Shown: positions 738 through 56,125 of the stretch, piece by piece
Layout: each line of letters opens with the position of its first letter
Position numbering within the stretch: position 1 is the stretch's first letter
Source: a virus
Strand: one strand, 5' to 3'
Virus record (IMG/VR): IMGVR_UViG_3300028591_000144
DNA: 64,000 nt
Notes under the pieces: generated by a model
Database searches by the model: none
The model's input: only the letters and a program-made list of their open reading frames with translations
Told to the model about the DNA's origin: nothing
Program-made: the position numbers and the translations under genes

Positions 738-1883
738 ATGAACTACACTATGATTCGTGACAAGAATATGCTCCGCTTTACTTCTGATAATAATAAGAAT
801 TATACCTTTGATATTAATACTGGCATTTTTTATGGTATTTCTAACAAGCCTATTAAGACTCTCCCGACTGGTATGAGCACATGGCTGAATGATAATAAGC
901 ATGGGACAAATGCTCTTTTTCTTCTGGATTCTATTCGGCGCAATTACTGGCGCTATAATACCCCTATGCATAGCATGCCGAACCTGACTCAGATTGCTAA
1001 TAACTTTGGCAAGTATTTCAATCTGGTTGATCGGATTCAGAGTGTTGGCTATGTTGTTAATGATAGTTATGATTTTGATTTGGCAAGTCTTGATTATGTT
1101 GCTGAACATTTCAAAGTGTTTGCAAAATATATTAAAGAATTGCCAGAAGAAAGAAAGCGCAATTGTATCCGCCGTTTCATGTCAGATATGGGCGCAGAGA
1201 TTTTTGCGGAATCTCACAACCTTACTATTAATGAATATCTGAATGAAACCATGATTAGTGAAATTGCAGATTTTTGTAGGAGAAATCCTAAATATGATAC
1301 TCCGCAGTATGTCTCTTTGATTGTCTATTATATGACTCGTGGGCTTTGTGAGTTTCTTTCTTATCCTGAAGATTCTGAGTCTATTTATAAATTTGGCAAA
1401 GGACTTACATATATTTATAATTACTTTCAGATGTGTGAAGCTCTTGGTATTGTCCCTCAGAAAGAAAATTTCTTTAGTAGTTACATTAAAGTAATTAAAG
1501 AGTATCGGCTTAATAAAGAAAAGATCGACAATAAAAAAATTACAGATCATTACGCAAAAACTAATCTGTATTTTGAGGATGATAATTTCTTTACCTATAT
1601 TCCTCAGAGTCAGGAAGATTTTAAGCGTGAGGCTGATGCTCAGTCGAATTGTGTTTACTCTATGTATATGAAACAAGTTATGAAACATTCGACAAGCGTA
1701 GTTTTTGTCCGCAGGAAAGATGCTCCTGATACTTCGCTTATTACTTGTGAAGTTTCTAATACTGGGGAAATCTGGCAGTATCTTGCAAGATTTAATCATA
1801 GAGTACCAGAGAATACTCCTGAGCATGACTTTTATCTTAAATATAAGTCTTGGCTTAATAATAATTTTAAGACTGAGTGGTAA
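738..1883 (+). CDS. Hypothetical protein, 381 aa (possibly PcfJ-like)
   Basis: Long ORF with a strong RBS (AAGAAAGGAAG). Sits in its own promoter-terminator cassette. The PcfJ resemblance is only an impression from the C-terminal region. Confidence 0.7.
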   Translation: MNYTMIRDKNMLRFTSDNNKNYTFDINTGIFYGISNKPIKTLPTGMSTWLNDNKHGTNALFLLDSIRRNYWRYNTPMHSMPNLTQIANNFGKYFNLVDRIQSVGYVVNDSYDFDLASLDYVAEHFKVFAKYIKELPEERKRNCIRRFMSDMGAEIFAESHNLTINEYLNETMISEIADFCRRNPKYDTPQYVSLIVYYMTRGLCEFLSYPEDSESIYKFGKGLTYIYNYFQMCEALGIVPQKENFFSSYIKVIKEYRLNKEKIDNKKITDHYAKTNLYFEDDNFFTYIPQSQEDFKREADAQSNCVYSMYMKQVMKHSTSVVFVRRKDAPDTSLITCEVSNTGEIWQYLARFNHRVPENTPEHDFYLKYKSWLNNNFKTEW

Positions 1884-1951: not shown

Positions 1952-2037
1952 GTATATAGTTTATACAATTTCCAAGCTCTTTTTTTGTGCAATATGCCAT
2001 ATTGCATTTTTCCCGATAGTATGTTATATTATAAAAG
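1949..2037 (+). promoter_or_regulatory. Early promoter/operator module, copy 2
   Basis: Contains TTTTTTGTGCAATATGCCATATTGCATTTTTCCCGATAGTATGTTATATTATAAAAG, i.e. the palindrome, a -35 TTGCAT and a -10 TATATT. Confidence 0.65.
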
Positions 2038-2095
2038 CAATAGGAAATGATGATAAACCTATTGACATTAAAAAAATGAGGTAAAAAAAATTATT

Positions 2096-2791: not shown

Positions 2792-2883
2792 TATATAAAT
2801 AGGAATGTATTTCTATACATTCCTATTTTAATTCACGCGCCATTTGCGAGTGTCCACCCCCGCAAATGGCGCGATTTTTCTTT

Positions 2884-2965
2884 TATATACAATATGCCCA
2901 ATTTTTCCAGGATATATTTGTGCATATTACCATATTGCAATTTTCCTATAATTTGATATAATAGA
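2884..2965 (+). promoter_or_regulatory. Early promoter/operator module, copy 3
   Basis: Conserved motif with the palindrome TGCATATTACCATATTGCA. Preceded by hairpin terminators at 2800-2830 and 2836-2886. Confidence 0.6.
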
Positions 2966-3009
2966 AACTGTCAAAAGGATAAAAAAAACATAATTATTAA
3001 AAAATCCTA

Positions 3010-3038
3010 TTGACAATTTTCATAAAATTTGTTATAAT
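3010..3038 (+). promoter_or_regulatory. Consensus sigma70 promoter (TTGACA, 17-nt spacer, TATAAT)
   Basis: -35 TTGACA at 3010-3015, exactly 17 nt of spacer, -10 TATAAT at 3033-3038. About 30 nt upstream of the HAD gene start. Confidence 0.75.
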
Positions 3039-3069: not shown

Positions 3070-3534
3070 ATGAGTAAAGCAATTTATTTTGACATGGATG
3101 GTACACTTGATGACCTTTATGGTGTAGATGGTTGGCTCGAAAGTCTGCGGAAGTTTCAGACTAAGCCTTACAGAGAAGCAAAGTCTTTGCAGGATATGAG
3201 ACTTTTAAGCAATTTGCTTCTTGATCTTCAAGCTCTTGGTTATCATATTGGAATTGTTTCATGGGGCAGTAAGCAGTCCACAGAGGAATATCTTGAAAGA
3301 GTCCGTACTGCTAAACTCAAGTGGCTTCAAAAGCATATGGGTAGAATTATTTTTGATGAAATTAAAATTGTGCAGTATGGAACGCCGAAAAGTTCTGTTG
3401 TAGATTTTAAAGATGGAATCCTGTTTGATGATGAACAGCAGAACAGAGAAAACTGGGAAGGCACTTCTTATGACGAGACTAATATCCTTGAGATTCTGTC
3501 TGGTCTGGTGCTGGATGAAGTAGGGCTTCTGTAA
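3070..3534 (+). CDS. HAD-superfamily phosphatase (motif I FDMDGTL)
   Basis: N-terminal DxDGT motif is typical of HAD phosphatases and nucleotidases. Own consensus promoter and triple-hairpin terminator. Confidence 0.75.
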   Translation: MSKAIYFDMDGTLDDLYGVDGWLESLRKFQTKPYREAKSLQDMRLLSNLLLDLQALGYHIGIVSWGSKQSTEEYLERVRTAKLKWLQKHMGRIIFDEIKIVQYGTPKSSVVDFKDGILFDDEQQNRENWEGTSYDETNILEILSGLVLDEVGLL

Positions 3535-3643: not shown

Positions 3644-3728
3644 ATTGTATAATATGTACAATTTTTCTAAGATATTTTTGTGCAATATGCCATATTGCAT
3701 TTTTCCTGATAGTGTGTTATATTATAAA
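3644..3728 (+). promoter_or_regulatory. Early promoter/operator module, copy 4
   Basis: TTGTATAATATGTACAATTTTTCTAAGATATTTTTGTGCAATATGCCATATTGCATTTTTCCTGATAGTGTGTTATATTAT. Confidence 0.65.
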
Positions 3729-3783
3729 AGCAATAAGGAATGATGATAAACCTATTGACATTAAAAAAAATGAGGTAAAAAAA

Positions 3784-5866: not shown

Positions 5867-5890
5867 TTATAAGCGCCCACTCTTATGGGC

Positions 5891-5934
5891 GCTTTCTTGT
5901 CGGGTGTGAGCACTCGACAAGAAAGCGTATTTTC
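5891..5934 (+). terminator. Hairpin terminator GCTTTCTTGTCGGGTGTGAGCACTCGACAAGAAAGCG plus T-tract
   Basis: Preceded by the hairpin GCGCCCACTCTTATGGGCGC. Read directly. Confidence 0.7.
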
Positions 5935-5937
5935 GAT

Positions 5938-6022
5938 GTTGTATAATATATACAATTTCCAGGCAGATTTTTTGTATAATTTGCTATATTGCAATTTTCC
6001 TAAAATCTGATATAATAATAAT
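5938..6022 (+). promoter_or_regulatory. Early promoter/operator module, copy 7
   Basis: TTGTATAATATATACAATTTCCAGGCAGATTTTTTGTATAATTTGCTATATTGCAATTTTCCTAAAATCTGATATAATAAT. Confidence 0.6.
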
Positions 6023-6112
6023 TGTCGAGAGGGCAATAGCAAGCCAAAGGCCACGGCGAATGGAGATAAAGAATAAGGCTCTCCCAAATTACAAATAATT
6101 TGAAAAACCCTC

Positions 6113-6141
6113 TTGACATTGTAGAAAATCTGTGCTATAAT
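6113..6141 (+). promoter_or_regulatory. Consensus sigma70 promoter (TTGACA-17-TATAAT) inside a CCTCTTGACA inverted-repeat context
   Basis: -35 at 6113-6118, 17-nt spacer, -10 at 6136-6141. Same AAACCCTCTTGACA context as the 8.5-9.9 kb promoter arrays. Confidence 0.75.
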
Positions 6142-6173
6142 AAGCACATCAAATCAAGAAAGGAATTGATACT

Positions 6174-6539
6174 ATGGCAGATAAAGGAATGACTATTAAG
6201 CAGGGATTTACTCGTGCGCTGGAAGATTACCGCAAACTTGGTAATATTGAGATGGTAGAGTTTTTTGAGAAGCGTCTTGAACAGCTCAATAAAAAAAGTG
6301 ATGCTCCGAAGAAAAGAACTCCTCGTCAGATCGAAAATGATGCTTACAAGGAAATCATTCTCAATGGAATGAACGGAGAGACTGAGTATACTATTGATGA
6401 TATGCTGATGTACTTCGGACTTCCTCTTGAGATGAAAACTCAGCGTGTTTCTGCTCTTCTGTCTCAGTTGGTAGAAGAAAATAAAGTTGAGCGTGTTTCT
6501 GATACCAAGGGGCATCGTAAGTTTAAACTCGTAGCATAA
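6174..6539 (+). CDS. Small basic protein, family A (paralogues at 8810, 23213 and 51711)
   Basis: Shared architecture: a central K/R-rich stretch (KKSDAPKKRTPRQ) and a C-terminal hydrophobic-x-x-A end. The TTGATACTATG start context is shared with 8810. Confidence 0.7.
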   Translation: MADKGMTIKQGFTRALEDYRKLGNIEMVEFFEKRLEQLNKKSDAPKKRTPRQIENDAYKEIILNGMNGETEYTIDDMLMYFGLPLEMKTQRVSALLSQLVEENKVERVSDTKGHRKFKLVA

Positions 6540-6591
6540 GACCTGCTGGATTTTACCCCCTATGTAAAAACATAGGGGATTTTCTTTTTGG

Positions 6592-6640
6592 CGGTTCATT
6601 TGCGTGCGTTCCTTGCGCAAATGAACCGAATTATCTCTTT
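6592..6640 (+). terminator. Hairpin terminator CGGTTCATTTGCG-TGCGTTCCT-TGCGCAAATGAACCG
   Basis: Preceded by the hairpin CCCCTATG-TAAAAA-CATAGGGG. Read directly. Confidence 0.7.
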
Positions 6641-6753
6641 TGTATACTTTGCATAAAATTTATTATTATTTTTTGTATAATATTTTATATTGCATTTTTC
6701 CTAAAATCTGTTATAATAGTATATGTAAATAAGAAAAAAAAAGGAGATAAATA

Positions 6754-7185
6754 ATGAAGTATCTTATTATGAAATGTGAAGAATTGAATGACCAATACGA
6801 ATGTGACACTAATCGTACTCCTATTACTATGACAGATAATTGGAAAACTTGGTATAAAGATAATAACCCTGATTATTATTTTGAAGTTTATGAATATAAA
6901 AATAATCATTTTACTTGTATTAAAGACTATAATACTTCTATGGAAAATGGAATGGTTTTTGTCTGGTTTGATGAAGATACGCCAGAAGATGAGTTTAATG
7001 TAATTACACGTTTTCCAAATTATAATAGACATATGCCTATGCCAACAGACTTGTATGCCAGAGCAAAAAGAGGAGAAGATTTTGATGATTCGCTTTCAAG
7101 CTGTGGCTATGTCTCTTGGAATGAAGGCGATAAGTACTACGCTTATACAGAATATTATGATAATCGAATTTGTTGTCCTTATTAA
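6754..7185 (+). CDS. Hypothetical protein, 143 aa
   Basis: RBS AAAGGAG. Followed by the long hairpin TGCGCTTTACCAT...ATGGTAAAGCGCA. Confidence 0.65.
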   Translation: MKYLIMKCEELNDQYECDTNRTPITMTDNWKTWYKDNNPDYYFEVYEYKNNHFTCIKDYNTSMENGMVFVWFDEDTPEDEFNVITRFPNYNRHMPMPTDLYARAKRGEDFDDSLSSCGYVSWNEGDKYYAYTEYYDNRICCPY

Positions 7186-7254
7186 ATAAAAAATGCGCTT
7201 TACCATATAAAATAATTTATTTTTAAAAAAAAATGGTAAAGCGCATAACTTATA

Positions 7255-7290
7255 TTGACTTTATAAAAAAAATATGATATAATATATATA
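7255..7290 (+). promoter_or_regulatory. First copy of the second conserved promoter class (TTGACTTTATAAAAAAAATATGATATAATATATATAG)
   Basis: Same motif as the ~30 copies downstream (see the feature at 18863). Confidence 0.65.
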
Positions 7291-7312
7291 GTTAATATAA
7301 GGAGTATTAAAA

Positions 7313-7714
7313 ATGAGTAAAAAAGGCTTAGATGAAAATCAAATTACTTTTTTAATGCAAAAATTAAAAATATCTCGTGAAGAAGCTATTGATATGCTAG
7401 CTTATGATGATGATGTAAATCACGATCGTCCTACAGAGCATGACTTAACTCCAGATCAAAAAGCTTTTGTCCAAGATATGGTAAGACATTGTGAACATAA
7501 AAAATATGGCCATGTTGAAAGAAATCGTAAACCTAATGATTTAAAAATTGCAATTATGGCGGAAATTGCTGAATTTTTACGAGAAGATGCACAAGGTCAA
7601 GTGTATGAAGATGTAGAATTAACAAATATTTCTCGAATGATGCACTTTAAAGTAGGAAATAAAGAGTTTGATCTACAATTAATTGAAAAAAGACATCCAA
7701 ATAAAGAAAAATAA
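7313..7714 (+). CDS. Hypothetical protein, family B paralogue
   Basis: RBS AAGGAG. N-terminus similar to the protein of 5495..5866. Confidence 0.7.
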   Translation: MSKKGLDENQITFLMQKLKISREEAIDMLAYDDDVNHDRPTEHDLTPDQKAFVQDMVRHCEHKKYGHVERNRKPNDLKIAIMAEIAEFLREDAQGQVYEDVELTNISRMMHFKVGNKEFDLQLIEKRHPNKEK

Positions 7715-7971
7715 TATCTTTTTATGAGTTTTTAGGGTAAAAATAATACTTTTTACCCTATTTTTATATAATTTTATAATGGTATTTTTAGCGCATTCTC
7801 CACGCGCGTCCCTCGCCTGGAGAATGCGTTTTTACTATTATATTATACTTTTGTATTTTTTTTATATATTATTTTACTTTTTATACAAAATAATATTTTC
7901 CTGTAATACTTTTTCTTTTATTAATAACAGTCTAATAGCAATATGTTATAGTGGTTTACATAAGAAAGTCG

Positions 7972-8000
7972 TTGACATAATATCTTTTTTTTGTTATAAT
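7972..8000 (+). promoter_or_regulatory. Consensus sigma70 promoter (TTGACA-17-TATAAT)
   Basis: -35 at 7972-7977, 17-nt spacer, -10 at 7995-8000. Immediately upstream of the RBS and ATG at 8038. Confidence 0.7.
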
Positions 8001-8037
8001 GACCACAGAAACCAAGAGAAAAGGAGAGTACAGAAAA

Positions 8038-8133
8038 ATGACTTGGACTTTTATAATTTTGGGTACAATTATTGGATGTTTATGCGGCATGGCCGTATAT
8101 GTACAGATTGAAGAGTGGAAGGATCGACATTGA
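8038..8133 (+). CDS. Small hydrophobic peptide (31 aa, MTWTFIILGTIIGCLCGMAVYVQIEEWKDRH)
   Basis: Perfect RBS AAAAGGAGAG 8 nt upstream, consensus promoter, single predicted TM helix. Below the track's 60-aa cutoff. Confidence 0.5.
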   Translation: MTWTFIILGTIIGCLCGMAVYVQIEEWKDRH

Positions 8134-8279
8134 TGGATACTTATATTACTCTTACTATCCTTTTAGTTTTAAGTATATATGGCATTTATCATCTTCTAAA
8201 AGCTTTTGCAGAGCATGAGCAATTAGAAAAGCGCCAATTTTTTAAACCATTACCTCAATATAAAGGGAAGGATAGATAA
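8133..8279 (+). CDS. Small hydrophobic peptide (48 aa, MDTYITLTILLVLSIYGIYHLL...), start overlaps the previous stop (ATGA)
   Basis: Translationally coupled with 8038..8133. Followed by two hairpin terminators at 8264-8335. Confidence 0.45.
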   Translation: MDTYITLTILLVLSIYGIYHLLKAFAEHEQLEKRQFFKPLPQYKGKDR

Positions 8280-8344
8280 AAATCCTTCCCTTTAAAACGC
8301 TTTCTTGTCGGGCGCTCACCCCGGCAAGAAAGCGTGTTTGACTT

Positions 8345-8432
8345 ATTGTATAATAAATGTAATTTTCCAGGCGATCTTTTTGTGCAATATTCCATCTTGT
8401 ATTTTCCGAAAAACCTGCTATAATAATAAGTG
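8345..8432 (+). promoter_or_regulatory. Early promoter/operator module, copy 9
   Basis: TTGTATAATAAATGTAATTTTCCAGGCGATCTTTTTGTGCAATATTCCATCTTGTATTTTCCGAAAAACCTGCTATAATAATAAG. Confidence 0.6.
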
Positions 8433-8522
8433 TCAAGAGGGAGAGGCGCCGAGCCGCAAGAGTTATGGTTTATCTGCGCGGTTGCCAAAGCCATAAAAGA
8501 AAAATAAAATGCCGAAAACCTC

Positions 8523-8551
8523 TTGACAAGCCACTGAAAATGTGGTATAAT
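8523..8551 (+). promoter_or_regulatory. Consensus sigma70 promoter with extended -10 (TTGACA-17-TGGTATAAT), member of tandem array 1
   Basis: CCTCTTGACAAGCCACTGAAAATGTGGTATAATGAATACAGTCAAGAGG. The promoter is framed by the inverted repeat CCTCTTGAC/GTCAAGAGG. Confidence 0.75.
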
Positions 8552-8633
8552 GAATACAGTCAAGAGGGGTGGTTGGAGCCCATACCCCACGACCGCAAGG
8601 CCAAAAATTTTCAAAGAAATTTGAAAAACCCTC

Positions 8634-8662
8634 TTGACAAACCACACAATGTGTGCTATAAT
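8634..8662 (+). promoter_or_regulatory. Consensus sigma70 promoter (TTGACA-17-TATAAT), array 1
   Basis: -35 at 8634-8639, -10 at 8657-8662. Same CCTCTTGACAA framing. Confidence 0.75.
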
Positions 8663-8809
8663 AAGTATGTAAAGAGGACAGGGGAGAACGCAAGATAGAA
8701 ATTGGGACTTGCTAATGACCCTCCTCCCCCTCCTCTAAACATAAGCCTTGCCGTCGCTAAAAGGCATGAGAATCTGGCGACAAAAAAATTTAGTAAAGAG
8801 GTTGATACT

Positions 8810-9163
8810 ATGTCTACTAAGAAGATGTCCTATGTTGTTGCTGTTGAGAACGCTATCAATGGCAAGATTGATGATGAAGTCATTGAGCGCCTGACTGCGC
8901 TGAAGGCTTCGCTGGAGAAGCGTGCTTCGCGCAAGTCCGAAGGCCCCACCAAGGCGCAGAAGGCTAATGCTGAGCTGGCTGAGCGTATCGCTAATGCGAT
9001 GGTCGCTGGCACTGTCTACGATACCGAGAGTATCAAGGGGCTGGTCGAGGAACTGGCGAACGCCACTCCGCAGAAGGTGTCTCCCCTGATGAAGCACCTT
9101 GTTGCTGAGGGTCGTGTGACCTCTGAGAAGGTCAAGGGCAAGGCTACTTACACCCTTGCCTAA
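8810..9163 (+). CDS. Small basic protein, family A paralogue. Unusually GC-rich.
   Basis: Shares KRASRKSEGPTKAQKANAEL and the GKATYTLA C-terminus with the protein of 6174..6539. Codon usage is strongly G/C-biased compared with its neighbours. Driven by the promoter array at 8.4-8.7 kb. Confidence 0.75.
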   Translation: MSTKKMSYVVAVENAINGKIDDEVIERLTALKASLEKRASRKSEGPTKAQKANAELAERIANAMVAGTVYDTESIKGLVEELANATPQKVSPLMKHLVAEGRVTSEKVKGKATYTLA

Positions 9164-9193
9164 GTAAAAGAGGGGGACTTCCCCCTCTAAATA

Positions 9194-9305
9194 AAAAATC
9201 TTGCCCTTACATGGGCGCAGGGTGGAAGAGCCACGAAACTACAAGTTGCTCTTGCTTGTAATGTAGTGCCACTAAACTGCGTCAATGTAAGGGCAAGATT
9301 TTTTA
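9194..9305 (+). other. Long perfect hairpin (15-bp stem ATCTTGCCCTTACAT...ATGTAAGGGCAAGAT around a ~75-nt GC-rich loop). A structured RNA or elaborate terminator.
   Basis: Read directly. Flanked by the hairpins AAAGAGGGGGACTTCCCCCTCT (9168-9192) and TTTCTCGCTTGCTCAACGG...CGTTGAGCAAGCG (9325-9372). Confidence 0.5.
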
Positions 9306-9380
9306 TTTAAAGTTAAAAGAGTAGTTTCTCGCTTGCTCAACGGTGGTGCGCCATCGTTGAGCAAGCGTCTTTATCTTTTT

Positions 9381-9462
9381 ATACAAATTGCACAATTTCC
9401 AAGTAATATATTTGTGCAATATTCCATCTTGTAATTTTCCTGAAATCTGCTATAATAATAAG
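9381..9462 (+). promoter_or_regulatory. Early promoter/operator module, copy 10
   Basis: ATACAAATTGCACAATTTCCAAGTAATATATTTGTGCAATATTCCATCTTGTAATTTTCCTGAAATCTGCTATAATAATAAG. Confidence 0.6.
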
Positions 9463-9594
9463 TGTCAAGAGGGGACGTCGCCCAAAAGGGACTCCTCTGG
9501 GAGATAAGGATTGCTTGTGAAACCTTACTGCACTGTGGAGTAACAAGAACCAAATGGGACTTGAAAAATGTTGCAGTCTTTTTCAAAAAACCTC

Positions 9595-9623
9595 TTGACA
9601 AACCCCACGGAATGTGGTATAAT
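9595..9623 (+). promoter_or_regulatory. Consensus sigma70 promoter (TTGACA-17-TGGTATAAT), tandem array 2
   Basis: CCTCTTGACAAACCCCACGGAATGTGGTATAATAAAAGTGTCAAGAGG. Confidence 0.75.
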
Positions 9624-9713
9624 AAAAGTGTCAAGAGGGGAACCGAACAGGACAAGTAAGGCACCGCGGATGACCCCAAAGCGACGAGAGGTTGATAAAA
9701 GTTTAAAACCCTC

Positions 9714-9742
9714 TTGACAAACTATACAATGTGTGCTATAAT
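9714..9742 (+). promoter_or_regulatory. Consensus sigma70 promoter (TTGACA-17-TATAAT), array 2
   Basis: CCTCTTGACAAACTATACAATGTGTGCTATAATAAGAATGTCAAGAGG. Confidence 0.75.
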
Positions 9743-9857
9743 AAGAATGTCAAGAGGAATAGACCGAAACCTCCTGTGGAAGAGTTTCAAAAGTGGGAAT
9801 ACAAGGGCCTCCCAAACACTCAAAAAAATAATTGCGCAATAAAATTTGAGAAACCCC

Positions 9858-9886
9858 TTGACAAGCCTTAAAAAGTATGGTATAAT
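9858..9886 (+). promoter_or_regulatory. Consensus sigma70 promoter (TTGACA-17-TGGTATAAT), array 2, closest to the 9922 gene
   Basis: CCCCTTGACAAGCCTTAAAAAGTATGGTATAATAAATATAG. Confidence 0.75.
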
Positions 9887-9921
9887 AAATATAGAAAAAA
9901 ACAAGAAAGGAAATAAAAACA

Positions 9922-10152
9922 ATGGCTGAAATTACTTATGATGTGGTAAAAAATATTGGCGTGATTGCTGATAATGGCGCGTGGGAAACGCAGGTAAATA
10001 TGATTTCTTGGAATCACGGGGCGCCTAAATTTGACATTCGCAAGTGGAATGTTGAAACTGACCGTATGAGCAAGGGTATTTCTTTAACTGAAAGTGAAGC
10101 TCGTGAACTGGTAAAGGTTCTGACTAAATACTTTGAGGAAGAGGATGAATAA
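9922..10152 (+). CDS. PC4-like / YdbC-like ssDNA-binding protein (76 aa)
   Basis: The segment FDIRKWNVETDRMSKGISLTESEARELVKVL matches the PC4 C-terminal domain signature (IDIREYW...KGISLNPEQW..L). Confidence 0.6.
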   Translation: MAEITYDVVKNIGVIADNGAWETQVNMISWNHGAPKFDIRKWNVETDRMSKGISLTESEARELVKVLTKYFEEEDE

Positions 10153-10154
10153 CA

Positions 10155-10322
10155 ATGAAAACCTATGTTGTTAAAGAATATTTGAACAACTATAGGGGTT
10201 TTCGGTGGGTAACTGTTGCTTACAATCCTGAAGAAAAAGTAGAAGAGCATTGCAAACCACCTTGTCTTTTTGAGGACTATAAATCTACTGAAAGTAAAAT
10301 CCATAAGTATGAAGTTGAATAA
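10155..10322 (+). CDS. Small protein (55 aa, MKTYVVKEYLNNYRGFRWVTVAYNPEEK...)
   Basis: The ATG lies 2 nt after the upstream stop. Followed by the terminator at 10344-10392. Below the track cutoff. Confidence 0.45.
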   Translation: MKTYVVKEYLNNYRGFRWVTVAYNPEEKVEEHCKPPCLFEDYKSTESKIHKYEVE

Positions 10323-10343
10323 ACTTCATACTTTTTTTATTAG

Positions 10344-10392
10344 CGGTTTCTGCTCGGGCGCCTTTGGCGCGCAGAAACCGAGTTTTAATTAA
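10344..10392 (+). terminator. Hairpin terminator CGGTTTCTGC...GCAGAAACCG plus T-tract. Marks the end of the early cassette region.
   Basis: Read directly. Confidence 0.7.
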
Positions 10393-10689
10393 TTAAAAAA
10401 TAATGAAATTTTACACACAAAAAAGAAGCAATAGGTAACAAAGTTGTAATTCCCATTATCGCGGCTCGCAAGCGACCGCAGGGAGCGCAGCGATGCCGAA
10501 ATTTTCATTATACCATATTTTACAAATTTTGTCAACTGTTTTTTTGCACAAATTTCTTCGAAAATTTTTCCCATTTTTGTGCATAATGCCGAATTGTTAA
10601 TTAATTAACTAACAATCTGTAACCGTTTTGTAACTATTTGTTTCCAGCTTGTAACTTTTACCTTAAGCCAGCCCTTCCGCGGCGAATGA

Positions 10690-10930
10690 CCTAAAAAATA
10701 CCTATAAAGCCCTCGCGCGGTGACAAAAGTCGACCTCTAACTAAGCGCCCTATGGCGCAACAAATCAACTCTGGTCCGGCTGCCCGAGGACAACCTAGCC
10801 CGGGGACAAATATCGACCTAGCAAAACTCTATAAAGGCCCGGGGTGGTGACAAAAGTTGGCCTTCTAGATAACAAAAGTAGCATTTTCCTGAAAGTATAA
10901 CGCCGCAACAAAAGTTGACTTTTTAAAAAA
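10690..10930. repeat. Four or five dispersed copies of GGTGACAAAAGTYGRCC (GGTGACAAAAGTCGACC, GGGACAAATATCGACC, GGTGACAAAAGTTGGCC, GCAACAAAAGTTGAC)
   Basis: Read directly. Spacing is 40-60 bp. Confidence 0.55.
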
Positions 10931-48424: not shown

Positions 48425-49630
48425 ATGAAGAAATTTATTTCTATTATCCTTGCGCTTATTATGGTCTTTGCGCTTTGCGCGTGTGGTGATACTGTTGCAC
48501 CAGCGCCTGTTCCCACTGAAGATGCTGGCGTGCATGGTATGAAAGTTGGTTTCATTTATCTGCACGACAATGCTAGCACATATGATAAGAATTTTCTAGA
48601 AGCTGCTGAGACCGCTTGCAACAATATGGGTGTAACTTGTATTAACAAGACAAATATCCCCGAAGGTGGCGAGTGCTATGACGCTGCTGCTGAATTGGTT
48701 GATATGGGTTGTAGTATTGTTTTTGCTGATAGTTTCGGGCACGAAAGTTATATGCTGCAGGCAGCTAAAGATTTTCCTGATGTTCAGTTTTGCCATGCTA
48801 CTGGTACTATGGCACATACTGAAAAACTTCCTAATTTCCATAATGCTTTCGCATCTATCTATGAAGGACGTTATCTTGCAGGCGTTGCAGCTGGTATGAA
48901 GCTTAATGAGATGCTTGATAATGGTACTATTCAGCCTGATGAAGTTGTTATTGGTTATATTGGAGCATATCCTTATGCTGAAGTTATTTCTGGTTATACT
49001 TCTTTTTTCCTTGGTGCGCGGTCCGTCTGCCCGTCCGCAACTATGAAAGTCCAGTATACAAACTCTTGGTATGATGAATCGCTTGAAAAAGAAGCTGCTA
49101 ATAATCTAATTGGGCAGGGCTGCGTTCTTATTTCACAGCACGCAGATTCTATGGGAGCACCTACGGCTTGTGAACTTGCTGGAGTTCCTAATGTTTCTTA
49201 TAATGGTAGCACTGTCGAAGCATGCCCAAACACATTTATCGTTTCTTCTAAGATTAACTGGGTGCCTTACTTTGAATATATAATTCAGTGTGTGGTTAAT
49301 GGTAATCCTATTGATACTGATTGGACGGGTACAATGGCAACTGGTTCTGTAATGCTTACTGATGTAAATACTAAGGTTGCGGCTGTTGGTACTGTTGAAA
49401 AGCTTGCTGAAGTTGCTGACCAGCTAATGCATGAAGAAATCCACGTATTTGATACTACTAAGTTTACTATTAATGGAGCGTTTCTTGATGAATATATGGC
49501 AGACGTAGATTCTGATACAGATTTTACACCTGATACTAATGTAATTAGTGATGGAGTATTCTGGGAAAGTTTTTATAGGTCTGCGCCTTATTTCGATATA
49601 ATTATTGATGGTATTACTGTCATTGGATAA
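48425..49630 (+). CDS. BMP-family (Med/TmpC/PnrA-like) nucleoside-binding lipoprotein, 401 aa
   Basis: Lipoprotein signal peptide with a lipobox (ALIMVFALCACG). Overall pattern of the BMP family of ABC-transporter substrate-binding proteins. The gene is GC-richer than its neighbours. Confidence 0.65.
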   Translation: MKKFISIILALIMVFALCACGDTVAPAPVPTEDAGVHGMKVGFIYLHDNASTYDKNFLEAAETACNNMGVTCINKTNIPEGGECYDAAAELVDMGCSIVFADSFGHESYMLQAAKDFPDVQFCHATGTMAHTEKLPNFHNAFASIYEGRYLAGVAAGMKLNEMLDNGTIQPDEVVIGYIGAYPYAEVISGYTSFFLGARSVCPSATMKVQYTNSWYDESLEKEAANNLIGQGCVLISQHADSMGAPTACELAGVPNVSYNGSTVEACPNTFIVSSKINWVPYFEYIIQCVVNGNPIDTDWTGTMATGSVMLTDVNTKVAAVGTVEKLAEVADQLMHEEIHVFDTTKFTINGAFLDEYMADVDSDTDFTPDTNVISDGVFWESFYRSAPYFDIIIDGITVIG

Positions 49631-55783: not shown

Positions 55784-56125
55784 GGGGATGTTATGGTTTC
55801 GACATGGTTAGAAGGAAATAATAAGCGAGTAGAGTGTCTACTTTACAGACAAAATTTTTTTATAAATTAAATAACGATTACGAATATCTTTGCGCTGCTT
55901 GATTTATAAGCGGCTGTTCTACTGAGAAGACTACGCATCAGATAGAGCATCGACTAGTAGTAAATGTGAATACGTTATGTCTCGACCGTATCACACAAAA
56001 GAGACTATAGATTTAAGAGTTTGTTAATGGACTTTTAATTTCTAGAATAAAATCATTAACTACACTCGTAGAAAATTGTTTTTAACTAGTTATGGACACG
56101 AGTTCGATTCTCGTCATCTCCACCA
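55784..56125 (+). ncRNA. ssrA: tmRNA (ssrA), about 342 nt
   Basis: The 5' end GGGGATGTTATGGTTTCGACATGG matches the tmRNA 5' consensus GGGGnUGnnnUGGnUUCGACnnGG. The 3' end has T-arm ACGAG-TTCGATT-CTCGT, acceptor CATCTCC pairing with GGGGATG, then discriminator A and CCA. A candidate tag reading frame at about 55871-55903 gives ...NNDYEYLCAA-TGA. Confidence 0.65.

What the first reader, a model, noticed from the sequence alone, without database searches (positions are those of the whole stretch)
8396..9900. Two tandem arrays of textbook sigma70 promoters, each wrapped in a CCTCTTGACA...TGTCAAGAGG inverted repeat
There are promoters at 8523, 8634, 9595, 9714 and 9858, plus 6113 and weaker ones at 8396 and 9440. 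They have exactly TTGACA, a 17-nt spacer and TATAAT, most with the extended-10 TGG. The promoters are stacked 100-120 bp apart upstream of two small genes (8810 and 9922). The -35 hexamer is always embedded in AAACC(C)TCTTGACAA and the transcribed +8 to +16 region is GTCAAGAGG. So every promoter sits inside an ~45-bp-spaced 9-bp inverted repeat. That repeat could be a protein binding site, given the paired half-sites. It could also be an RNA stem-loop in read-through transcripts from the upstream promoter. The short GC-rich inter-promoter segments (e.g. 8560-8620 with the hairpin TTTTCAAAGAAATTTGAAAA) could be abundant small RNAs in their own right. Stacked consensus promoters are what phages such as T5 and T7 use to titrate host RNA polymerase early in infection.
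Basis: seen in the sequence. Interest (0 to 1): 0.7.

Follow-up and report, generated by a model that had tools for sequence, protein, structure and literature searches.

The report
Promoter arrays interleaved with closed RNA modules

Summary
The promoters are real: nine perfect TTGACA-17-TATAAT matches occur in the window against 0.03 expected, six of them in the arrays at 6113, 8523/8634 and 9595/9714/9858.

The inverted repeat is real but was mis-assigned. GTCAAGAGG lies 6-7 nt after a -10, at the predicted RNA 5' end. It pairs with CCTCTTGAC at the -35 of the NEXT promoter, bracketing the transcribed segment between promoters. All seven such segments in the window have both arms. Promoters 6113 and 9858 have no downstream arm.

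Across 1096 promoters from related contigs, the 5' motif is associated with CCTC at the next promoter (odds ratio 10, p = 2e-9) and not with its own (odds ratio 0.5). The arms covary (GAGG/CCTC against GGGG/CCCC).

In a set chosen independently of both arms, 29 of 39 had a perfect partner 60-183 nt downstream, against 0 of 39 in a control.

Two window segments (8432-8527 and 9749-9862) belong to conserved RNA families with nine compensatory base pairs each. Relatives place them next to different promoters and genes.

Best reading: arrays of promoter-driven, stem-closed structured early RNAs in phages of gut Clostridia. Their function is unknown and no match was found in Rfam or the searchable literature.

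The parts
2935..2962 (+). Upstream 'P0'-type promoter of mini-module Z (TTGCAA-16-TATAAT with extended -10 TG)
   Evidence: one of five copies of a conserved ~95-nt promoter region (alignment A3)
2970..3014 (+). Mini-unit Z. 5' arm GTCAAAAGGAT (2970-2980), a 23-nt A/T-rich loop, 3' arm ATCCTATTGAC (3004-3014). 10 of 11 positions pair and there is no GC-rich core.
   Evidence: read directly from the sequence
3010..3038 (+). Perfect consensus promoter; its -35 lies inside the 3' arm of unit Z. It drives gene 3070-3534.
5889..5928 (+). Terminator-like hairpin that opens module A
5989..6016 (+). P0-type promoter of module A (TTGCAA-16-TATAAT)
6024..6117 (+). Unit A RNA. 5' arm GTCGAGAGGG (6024-6033) pairs with 3' arm CCCTCTTGAC (6108-6117), 10 bp including one G.U.
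   Evidence: MFE -27.3 kcal/mol, z = -4.6, with the terminal helix in the MFE and centroid structures
6113..6141 (+). Perfect consensus promoter, gene-proximal, with no downstream arm. It drives gene 6174-6539.
8297..8335 (+). Terminator-like hairpin that opens module B
8397..8424 (+). P0-type promoter of module B (TTGTAT-16-TATAAT with extended -10 TG)
8432..8527 (+). Unit B1 RNA. Arms at 8432-8440 and 8519-8527. Member of a conserved structured family, with a possible pseudoknot.
   Evidence: Seven members: 92.7% of cells paired against 84.4% in shuffles (0/500); 9 pairs with changes on both sides. CM score 82.8 bits.
8523..8551 (+). Perfect consensus promoter; its -35 lies inside the 3' arm of B1. 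It drives unit B2.
8559..8638 (+). Unit B2 RNA. Arms at 8559-8568 and 8629-8638. It contains the A/U hairpin 8608-8627.
   Evidence: MFE -30.1 kcal/mol, z = -4.3
8634..8662 (+). Perfect consensus promoter, gene-proximal in module B
8669..8809 (+). 140-nt leader of gene 8810. Its 5' end GTAAAGAGGACAGGGGAG pairs with the pyrimidine run 8729-8750, not with a promoter. The same 9-mer GTAAAGAGG recurs at 8793 as the ribosome-binding site.
8810..9163 (+). 117-aa gene of unknown function, a distant paralogue of gene 6174-6539
9330..9367 (+). Terminator-like hairpin that opens module C
9429..9456 (+). P0-type promoter of module C (TTGTAA-16-TATAAT)
9464..9599 (+). Unit C1 RNA. Arms at 9464-9472 and 9591-9599.
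   Evidence: z = -2.5
9595..9623 (+). Perfect consensus promoter that drives unit C2
9630..9718 (+). Unit C2 RNA. Arms at 9630-9639 and 9709-9718.
   Evidence: the terminal helix is in the MFE and centroid structures; the interior is weakly structured (z = -2.0)
9714..9742 (+). Perfect consensus promoter that drives unit C3
9749..9862 (+). Unit C3 RNA. Arms GTCAAGAGG (9749-9757) and CCCCTTGAC (9854-9862) with one A.C mismatch. Member of a conserved structured family.
   Evidence: Six members: 91.7% of cells paired against 87.0% in shuffles (0/500); 9 pairs with changes on both sides. The L009 orthologue has the matched arms GTCGAGGGG and CCCCTTGAC.
9858..9886 (+). Perfect consensus promoter, gene-proximal, with no downstream arm and an unstructured 35-nt leader
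9922..10152 (+). 76-aa YdbC/PC4-like single-stranded-DNA-binding protein
   Evidence: PF02229 at 2e-8; PDB 3pm7 at 4e-15 and 2ltd at 8e-13

Best explanation
The region holds three modules, at 5889-6173, 8297-8809 and 9330-9921, plus a mini-module at 2935-3038. Each has the same layout: a terminator hairpin; a conserved extended -10 promoter ('P0'); one to three short transcribed units, each ended by a perfect sigmaA/sigma70 consensus promoter; then a small gene.

Shown:
- Each unit starts with GTCAAGAGG(G), 6-7 nt after a -10.
- Each unit ends with (C)CCTCTTGAC, whose TTGAC is the -35 of the next promoter.
- The two arms are complementary, and they covary across phages.
- At least two of the window's units have conserved, covarying internal helices.

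Inferred: RNA made from promoter i reads into promoter i+1, and its first 9-11 nt pair with the RNA copy of that promoter's -35 region. This closes the segment into a compact domain with both ends buried. Because TTGAC is fixed by the sigma factor and CC(T/C)C is shared by many promoters of these phages, the 5' arm works as a universal adaptor. Any [promoter + 5' arm + core] can then be placed in front of any such promoter and still close. This would explain why unrelated cores carry the same arms and why units are shuffled among contexts.

Most likely function (inferred, not shown): the arrays make large amounts of small, stem-closed, nuclease-resistant structured RNAs immediately after infection. 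These RNAs are either released from read-through transcripts or kept as 5' leader domains. The last promoter of each array makes the mRNA of a small early gene. The purine-rich 5' arm probably also helps RNA polymerase escape from these very tight promoters. What the individual cores do is unknown.
For: 1. Promoters. Nine perfect matches in the window against 0.03 expected.

2. Position of the motif. In loci not selected for the 5' arm, the 9-mer occurs 148 times as a -35 region, 21 times just after a -10 (16 of those at 6-7 nt), and only 7 times elsewhere.

3. Which arm goes with which.
- Promoters selected by the 3' arm (n = 121): an exact GTCAAGAGG lies within 220 nt upstream in 10, always just after another promoter's -10, and in their own +1 region in 1.
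- Promoters selected by the 5' arm: an exact CCTCTTGAC lies downstream in 16 of 95, at the promoter's own -35 in 6, and in an upstream control stretch in 1.
- 1096 pooled promoters: odds ratio 10.2 (p = 2e-9) with the next promoter and 0.53 with the promoter's own -35.
- Independent collection of bacterial genome contigs: 22 of 51 have the exact partner downstream, always in promoter context.
- Set selected only by the P0 upstream sequence: 29 of 39 have a 9/9 pairable partner 60-183 nt downstream, against 0 of 39 in a reversed control. 28 of the 29 partners are the -35 region of a promoter.

4. Covariation of the arms.
- GAGG with CCTC 22 times and GGGG with CCCC 10 times; the two crossed combinations once each.
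- Orthologues of unit B1 and of unit C3 carry matched arm variants.
- The P0 copy at 6628 has no unit after it, and its 5' arm has decayed to GTAAATAAG.

5. Folding. All units fold with the terminal helix.

6. Cores.
- B1 family (7 members): 9 pairs with changes on both sides against 4.3 in shuffles (0/500).
- C3 family (6 members): 9 against 4.0 (0/500). Paired cells fall to 30-58% when the partners are slid.
- In B1 a 19-nt loop is conserved while the helix around it has five different sequences.

7. Modularity. Relatives of the B1 and C3 units sit between different promoters and in front of unrelated genes.

8. Abundance. About 159 non-redundant bracketed units were found in the fetched loci. 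A covariance model of B1 finds about 115 further units at low score.

9. Host. The contigs with this motif are mostly binned with Clostridia.

10. Escape. A purine-rich initial transcribed sequence aids escape from the T5 N25 promoter (PMC12464699).
Against: - There are no transcript data. Transcription start sites are predicted from -10 spacing only, and read-through into the next promoter is assumed.
- No terminator lies between promoters, so no 3' end for a free small RNA is evident.
- Non-Watson-Crick positions in the arms are G.U 20 against A.C 13, which is not significant. The arms alone therefore cannot tell RNA pairing from a DNA-level inverted repeat.
- The mini-unit at 2970-3014 has no core. 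Four of the window's units (A, B2, C1, C2) have no detectable relatives, and C2 is only weakly structured.
- Burying the 5' end is not a general feature of leaders in these phages. Mean pairing probability of the first 8 nt is 0.38, against 0.34 and 0.39 in shifted controls. Only about 10% are strongly paired, and gene-proximal leaders such as that of 9858 are unstructured.
- The core families are small (6-7 sequences), and the structures were predicted from the same alignments on which they were scored.
Confidence: 0.6

Rival explanations
1. The closing helix is purely a cis-acting leader device. It buries the 5' end of transcripts from upstream promoters to protect them from 5'-end-dependent decay (RppH, RNase J1 or RNase Y in Firmicutes). 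It may also mask the anti-Shine-Dalgarno-like CCUCUU of the next promoter. On this view the cores are only well-folded spacers that keep the promoters 90-140 bp apart.
For: - The 5' arm starts at the predicted +1.
- Many single promoters in relatives carry a local 5' hairpin, CAAGAGG-loop-CCTCTTG.
- The 8669-8809 leader also pairs its 5' end with a downstream pyrimidine run.
- Mini-unit Z has arms but no core.
- 5'-terminal base pairing and 5' stem-loops are established mRNA stabilisers; see the references to Bouvet and Belasco 1992, Emory 1992 and Hambraeus 2002 in PMC3997798.
Against: - The strongest, gene-proximal promoters bypass the units, and their leaders are mostly not 5'-paired. The mRNAs therefore do not seem to need this device.
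- The 19-nt loop of B1 is conserved while its helix is replaced five times. This points to a sequence-specific role beyond 'any stable fold'.
- The units travel independently of the genes.
Confidence: 0.25
2. The repeat is a DNA-level operator. A phage or host protein binds CCTCTTGACA and its inverted copy on either side of each promoter to switch the early promoters off or on.
For: - Within the arrays the arms around a promoter are at a fixed 38-39 bp.
- Covariation of the two arms would also be expected for a symmetric protein site.
- G.U does not significantly outnumber A.C in the arms.
- The genes served (6174, 8810) may encode winged-helix-like proteins, but the Pfam hits are weak and below threshold.
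Against: - The 5' arm is not associated with CCTC at its own promoter (odds ratio 0.53) but with the next one (odds ratio 10.2).
- P0 promoters carry the 5' arm without any upstream arm, and 6113 and 9858 carry the upstream arm only.
- The arms that go together are 60-183 nt apart at variable distance.
- The fixed 38-bp spacing follows from promoter geometry alone.
Confidence: 0.05
3. The arms have no function of their own. They are recombination scars: promoter cassettes and leaders are shuffled by recombination at the shared CCTCTTGAC/GTCAAGAGG sequences, so the arms simply travel with the cassettes.
For: - Homology between the window and L009 breaks exactly at the 5' arm and just after the start codon.
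- Only the promoter cassettes are widely conserved by blastn.
- The window's C3 unit has a mismatched arm (A.C), as expected after a cassette swap.
Against: - Recombination at a direct repeat would not create an inverted pair.
- It would not explain the matched GAGG/CCTC against GGGG/CCCC classes.
- It would not explain why 126 of 159 units keep a perfect 9/9 match, or why the arm decays where no partner follows.
Confidence: 0.07

Closest known systems
Tandem early promoters A1, A2, A3 of phage T7 and the strong early promoters of T5 such as PN25
   Same: - Several very strong host-polymerase promoters are stacked about 110-140 bp apart ahead of the first small early genes.
- The initial transcribed sequence is purine-rich, which in T5 N25 speeds promoter escape (PMC12464699).
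- The T7 spacing is from my own knowledge.
   Different: - Here each inter-promoter segment is bracketed by a covarying inverted repeat that uses the next promoter's -35 as one arm.
- At least some segments are conserved structured RNAs.
- The hosts appear to be Clostridia, not E. coli.
- No RNase III site like T7 R0.3 has been shown.
5'-terminal stem-loop and polypurine mRNA stabilisers (E. coli ompA and papA; B. subtilis aprE leader; STAB-SD; the phage SP82 polypurine element)
   Same: A helix, or a purine-rich Shine-Dalgarno-like sequence, at the very 5' end of a transcript. These are known to block 5'-end-dependent decay (references listed in PMC3997798).
   Different: - The partner strand lies 60-180 nt away and doubles as a promoter element.
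- The helix encloses a whole domain, not a small hairpin.
- The gene-proximal leaders mostly lack it.
- No stability data exist.
Small RNAs derived from 5' untranslated regions, and stable RNAs whose 5' and 3' ends pair (tRNA acceptor stem, Y RNA, 6S RNA)
   Same: A short structured RNA whose two ends form the closing helix, made in front of an mRNA.
   Different: - No processing or termination signal has been identified.
- No Rfam family matches.
- There are many unrelated cores.
HK022 put RNAs (cis-acting antitermination RNAs just downstream of early promoters)
   Same: Structured RNA encoded immediately after phage early promoters, in a region full of terminators, that could act whatever the downstream gene.
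   Different: - The cores here fall into many unrelated families, whereas put is one two-hairpin fold.
- Polymerases that start at the next promoter would lack the element.
- This idea was not tested.
Correia elements and invertible promoters (promoter-bearing segments flanked by inverted repeats)
   Same: Short inverted repeats associated with promoters; transcribed copies of Correia elements form hairpins.
   Different: - The repeats here flank the transcribed unit, not the promoter.
- The interiors are unrelated to one another.
- Inverting a unit would leave both promoters unchanged.

Membership tests
sigma70/sigmaA consensus promoter | -35 TTGACA, 17-bp spacer, -10 TATAAT | tested here: met
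   Six perfect matches in the arrays and nine in the window, against 0.03 expected.
sigma70/sigmaA consensus promoter | Extended -10 TG and an A/T-rich UP-like region upstream of -35 | tested here: met
   TGG or TGC precedes every -10, and A-tracts precede CCTC.
sigma70/sigmaA consensus promoter | Transcription starts there with host holoenzyme | not testable with these tools
   No transcript data are available.
T7/T5-type stacked early promoter array | Two or more strong host-polymerase promoters in tandem, about 100-150 bp apart, ahead of early genes | tested here: met
   Spacings are 111, 119 and 144 bp. Stacks of two to five promoters recur in relatives.
T7/T5-type stacked early promoter array | Located in the first-entering, early-expressed part of the genome | not testable with these tools
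   The position of the window in the genome and the timing of expression are unknown.
5'-terminal stem-loop mRNA stabiliser | The helix begins within 0-2 nt of the transcript's 5' end | tested here: inconclusive
   The arm starts 6-7 nt after the -10 in 16 of 21 unselected cases, but the start site is only predicted.
5'-terminal stem-loop mRNA stabiliser | Present on the leader of the mRNA it protects | tested here: not met
   The leaders of gene-proximal promoters 9858 and 3010 are short and unstructured. Only about 10% of leaders in related loci have a strongly paired 5' end.
5'-terminal stem-loop mRNA stabiliser | Lengthens RNA half-life | not testable with these tools
   This needs decay measurements.
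Operator with half-sites flanking a promoter | Both half-sites belong to the same promoter | tested here: not met
   Odds ratio 0.53 with the promoter's own -35, against 10.2 with the next promoter. Orphan arms occur at 6113, 9858 and all P0 promoters.
Operator with half-sites flanking a promoter | A cognate DNA-binding protein | not tested
   Only weak, sub-threshold winged-helix hints exist for the 8810 protein.
Structured non-coding RNA (generic criteria) | Conserved secondary structure supported by compensatory changes | tested here: met
   Met for units B1 and C3: 9 pairs each with changes on both sides, 0 of 500 shuffles as high. Units A, B2, C1 and C2 have no relatives and could not be tested.
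Structured non-coding RNA (generic criteria) | Membership of a described Rfam family | tested here: not met
   No match at the gathering thresholds or at E up to 5.
Type III antitoxin-like RNA array (ToxI type) | Tandem direct repeats of one 34-45-nt unit | tested here: not met
   The cores of neighbouring units are unrelated; each window core matches only itself or its orthologues elsewhere.
Miniature inverted-repeat element or invertible promoter | Terminal inverted repeats around a conserved interior or an invertible promoter | tested here: not met
   The interiors fall into many unrelated families, and the repeats flank the transcribed unit, not the promoter. No search for a recombinase was made.
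Small protein-coding gene inside the units | A conserved open reading frame | tested here: not met
   The 77-aa frame 8465-8698 runs through two promoters. In B1 relatives the frame is 7 to 13 aa long, or has no ATG at all (L406), and substitutions are compensatory for RNA helices.

The most novel reading that the evidence does not exclude
The units are a new class of modular, promoter-capped phage small RNAs. Each is made from its own strong promoter. Each is closed by a universal adaptor helix that uses the next promoter's -35 as its 3' arm. Each is released or terminated at that promoter, for example by the polymerase sitting there or by cleavage in the A/U-rich promoter RNA. The RNAs would then act in trans early in infection, for instance as decoys or sponges for host defence or RNA-binding proteins. 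Different cores would be swapped between phages like cassettes.
Probability: 0.2. Interest if true: 0.85.

Novelty: new variant of a known kind. Interest (0 to 1): 0.62.

Why it matters
- **New RNA candidates.** Early regions of large uncultured gut phages are annotated as strings of hypothetical genes separated by 'intergenic' DNA. This work shows that the DNA between stacked promoters encodes conserved folded RNAs. It gives at least two to four new candidate RNA families and a simple signature for finding hundreds more: GTCAAGAGG just after a -10, and CC(T/C)CTTGAC at the next -35.
- **Unusual economy of sequence.** One DNA element appears to serve both as a promoter -35 and as the 3' strand of an RNA closing helix. 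This could explain how such modules are shuffled between phages.
- **Possible biological role.** If the RNAs act in trans, they would be a new layer of early host takeover in phages of Clostridia.
- **Practical use.** The promoters and closing stems are ready-made strong expression and insulation parts for Gram-positive anaerobes.

Tried and rejected
- **Half-sites around each promoter.** Rejected by the own-promoter versus next-promoter association test and by orphan arms.
- **Known RNA families.** No Rfam match for any unit at the gathering thresholds or at E up to 5.
- **Coding potential.** The frames are not conserved.
- **Terminators inside the arrays.** None found.
- **Strand asymmetry of wobble pairs in the arms.** G.U 20 against A.C 13, not significant. 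An earlier tally was biased by my own selection and was discarded.
- **A general rule that early leaders bury their 5' ends.** Not supported.
- **Antisense targets of conserved loops within the window.** Nothing convincing.
- **Relatives of the 8810 protein.** None in the phage records, in viral contigs or among solved structures.
- **Orthologues of the cores by exact pattern in viral contigs.** Only the two loci already in hand were found.
- **Stop-codon recoding in this window.** No clear signal.
- **Literature search for the motif.** Only unrelated primer and shRNA sequences came up. One paper (PMC177050) was not available.
- **Mobile element or invertible segment.** The interiors are unrelated, and inversion would change nothing.
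Full report

Reading 5900-10400 and the consensus scan confirm perfect TTGACA-17-TATAAT promoters starting at 6113, 8523, 8634, 9595, 9714 and 9858. Each has an extended -10 TG. The whole 64-kb window, which is 33.6% G+C, has nine perfect matches against 0.03 expected from shuffles.

Weaker promoters with a 16-bp spacer lie at 5989, 8397 and 9429. CCTCTTGACA with at most one mismatch occurs 23 times against 2.5 expected. GTCAAGAGG with at most one mismatch occurs 27 times against 6 expected.

- The downstream arm begins 6-7 nt after the -10. That is the predicted +1, not +8.
- The extended -10 is TGG in three promoters and TGC in three.
- Not every promoter is wrapped. Promoters 6113 and 9858 have no downstream arm, and the weak promoters have no upstream arm.

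**2. Re-reading the repeat**

Call the arm just after a -10 'a' (GTCAAGAGG) and the arm containing a -35 'b' (CCTCTTGAC). In the window every transcribed segment between two promoters has an a at its start and a b at its end:
- 6024-6117
- 8432-8527
- 8559-8638
- 9464-9599
- 9630-9718
- 9749-9862
- a mini-unit at 2970-3014, in front of the consensus promoter at 3010

Reading the repeat as flanking the units leaves one orphan arm. Reading it as flanking the promoters leaves five. Each unit folds with the a/b helix closing it. The full leader of gene 8810 folds as a1-b1 and a2-b2, with a third 5' arm pairing to a downstream pyrimidine run.

**3. Test in related sequences**

The only annotated relative is phage phAss-1 (OQ749652), from the human gut and assigned to the code-15 clade. 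It has the same stacked arrangement. Its authors infer a host in the Clostridia (PMC10607447).

I fetched four sets of loci:
- 120 from viral contigs, selected by b
- 116 from viral contigs, selected by a
- 49 from bacterial genome contigs, selected by a with a promoter
- 120 from metagenomes, selected only by the conserved upstream part of the P0 promoter, independent of a and b

Results:
- Of 121 b-selected promoters, 10 have an exact a within 220 nt upstream, each just after another promoter's -10. Only 1 has it in its own +1 region.
- Of 95 a-selected sites, 16 have an exact b downstream, 6 have it at their own -35, and 1 has it in an upstream control stretch.
- Pooling 1096 non-redundant promoters, an a-type start is associated with CCTC at the next promoter (odds ratio 10.2, p = 2e-9). 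It is not associated with CCTC at its own promoter (odds ratio 0.53).
- In the genome collection, 22 of 51 have the exact partner downstream, always as AAAACCTCTTGACAAA.
- In the P0-selected set, 29 of 39 a-type starts have a fully pairable partner 60-183 nt downstream, against 0 of 39 in a reversed control. 28 of the 29 partners are the -35 region of a promoter.
- The 9-mer hardly occurs outside these two contexts: 148 as -35 regions, 21 just after a -10, 7 elsewhere.

**4. Covariation of the arms**

Two matched classes exist: GAGG with CCTC (22 cases) and GGGG with CCCC (10 cases). The crossed combinations occur once each. The same pattern appears in the P0-selected set.

Orthologues support this:
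- The orthologue of unit B1 in L082 has GTTAAGGGG and CCCCTTGAC.
- The orthologue of C3 in L009 has GTCGAGGGG and CCCCTTGAC. The window's copy, with a different upstream promoter, has an A.C mismatch.

The window holds five copies of the conserved P0 region. The one at 6628 is followed directly by a gene, and its a arm has decayed.

A formal count on 58 a/next-b pairs gives 67.6% paired against 64.6 ± 0.8 in shuffles (0/500).

Among 159 non-redundant units, 126 have a perfect 9/9 match. The non-Watson-Crick positions are G.U 20, A.C 13 and other 7, which is not a significant asymmetry. The arms alone therefore do not prove that the pairing is in RNA. The case for RNA rests on three things: the variable distance between arms, the position of a at the 5' end, and the cores.

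**5. The cores are structured RNAs**

By blastn, only the promoter cassettes are widely conserved. Clustering the units nevertheless reveals families.

Unit B1 (8432-8527) has six relatives.
- RNAalifold predicts 26 pairs. 92.7% of cells are paired, against 84.4 ± 1.5 in shuffles (0/500).
- Nine pairs change on both sides, against 4.3 in shuffles (0/500).
- Pairing drops to 34-43% when the partners are slid.
- The 19-nt loop GAGUUAUGGYUUAUCUGCG is conserved while the helix around it takes five different sequences.
- UGGCUU in the loop can pair with the downstream AAGCCA. One member has UCGCU with AGCGA instead. This suggests a pseudoknot (sequences; not formally scored).

Unit C3 (9749-9862) has five relatives.
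- It has 28 predicted pairs, 91.7% paired against 87.0% in shuffles (0/500).
- Nine pairs change on both sides, against 4.0 in shuffles (0/500).

A third family without a window member has four compensatory pairs among three sequences.

The caveats are that the families are small and that the structures were predicted on the alignments they were scored on.

Other points:
- No unit matches Rfam.
- A covariance model of B1 scores true members at 82 bits or more. It picks up about 115 other a-to-b units at 25-45 bits.
- Relatives of B1 and C3 sit between different promoters and ahead of unrelated genes.
- Units A, B2, C1 and C2 have no detectable relatives.

**6. Mechanism**

Shown: the anatomy, the a-to-next-b association, the arm covariation and the core covariation.

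Inferred: transcripts start at a and read through the next promoter, and a pairs with the RNA copy of b to close the unit.

TTGAC is fixed by the sigma factor and CC(T/C)C is common in these phages' promoters, so a can act as a universal adaptor. This would let units be shuffled between contexts.

I favour the view that the arrays produce stem-closed structured RNAs early in infection, whether released or retained as leader domains, together with the mRNA of a small gene from the last promoter.

A purely cis-acting 5'-protection role is the main rival.
- For it: 5'-terminal pairing is an established stabiliser (references in PMC3997798), and local 5' hairpins with the same sequence occur at single promoters.
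- Against it: gene-proximal leaders are mostly not 5'-paired, and the conserved B1 loop implies more than a stable fold.

The purine-rich a arm probably also aids escape from these very tight promoters, as shown for T5 N25 (PMC12464699).

A promoter-flanking operator is not supported. Recombination scars alone do not explain matched inverted arms.

**7. Genes served**

- 9922-10152 encodes a YdbC/PC4-like single-stranded-DNA-binding protein.
- 6174-6539 and 8810-9163 are distant paralogues of unknown function.

**8. Host and spread**

Contigs with an a-type promoter are mostly binned with Oscillospiraceae, Acutalibacteraceae, Ruminococcus, Lachnospiraceae and other Clostridia. The closest viral contigs are 128-165 kb long.

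**9. Novelty**

Stacked early promoters and 5' stem-loops are each well known. What I did not find described is a covarying closing helix that uses the next promoter's -35 as one strand and brackets diverse conserved RNA modules. It is absent from Rfam and from the searchable literature.

I rate it a new variant of a known kind, with interest 0.62. What the RNAs do remains open.

Noticed in passing
window 37716-40163 (+): An 815-aa ORF matches the major vault protein shoulder domain (PF11978, 1e-19) and vault repeat 3 (PF17795, 4e-9). This is unusual in a phage.
   Followed up: no
window 55784-56125, 62393-63012, 60103-63973: The phage carries three kinds of RNA gene. It has a tmRNA (127 bits), a full-length ROOL RNA (274 bits) and a cluster of about ten tRNAs. 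One tRNA has anticodon TCA (61786-61856), which would read UGA. A simple stop-codon test showed no clear recoding in this window.
   Followed up: partly
window 2866-2990, 5925-6045, 6628-6750, 8335-8452, 9368-9485: There are five copies of a conserved ~95-nt promoter region. Its consensus is TTTGTGCAAtaTtCCATcTTGcAatTTTCC..CTGnTATAAT. Each copy follows a G+C-rich terminator hairpin.
   Followed up: partly
window 9833-9842; L009, L399 and L314 orthologues: The perfect palindrome ATTGCGCAAT lies about 15 nt upstream of the -35 of promoter 9858, inside unit C3. It stays palindromic in relatives although its sequence changes (ATTGTACAAT, TCTAGA). This could be a DNA site for a dimeric protein or a self-complementary RNA loop.
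   Followed up: no
window 9190-9310: A very long, near-perfect hairpin lies after gene 8810 (AAATAAAAAATCTTGCCCTTACATGGGCGCAG ... CTGCGTCAATGTAAGGGCAAGATTTTTTATTT). It gave a chance-level Rfam hit to a plant microRNA precursor. It is followed by a second terminator at 9330.
   Followed up: no
window 10400-10900: This is a G+C-rich stretch with no obvious gene. A perfect consensus promoter on the minus strand (10535-10507) points into a structured ~100-nt region. On the plus strand, two 49-nt direct repeats lie at 10688-10736 and 10815-10863, 76% identical. No Rfam match was found there.
   Followed up: partly
related loci, e.g. L065, L032, L077, L038, L056: Gene-proximal promoters in relatives often start their RNA with a small hairpin. 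Its loop is the purine-rich, Shine-Dalgarno-like AAGGAAAA, as in GGGAAGGAAAACCC and AGAGGAAGGAAAACCTC. It resembles a protein-binding or ribosome-binding 5' element.
   Followed up: no
window 8669-8677 and 8793-8801: The 9-mer GTAAAGAGG occurs twice: at the predicted 5' end of the gene 8810 leader and again as its ribosome-binding site. Both copies can pair with the pyrimidine run at 8729-8750. This could be a translational switch.
   Followed up: no
window 738-1883, 40278-41531, 48425-49630: The window also encodes a PcfJ-like protein, an RNA ligase with an OB-fold domain, and a PnrA-like substrate-binding protein.
   Followed up: no
window 2024-2084 and 3717-3760 (-): Two nearly identical minus-strand promoter-like segments (TTATCA-17-TATAAT, preceded by TTTAATGTCAATAGG) suggest a local duplication.
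   Followed up: no
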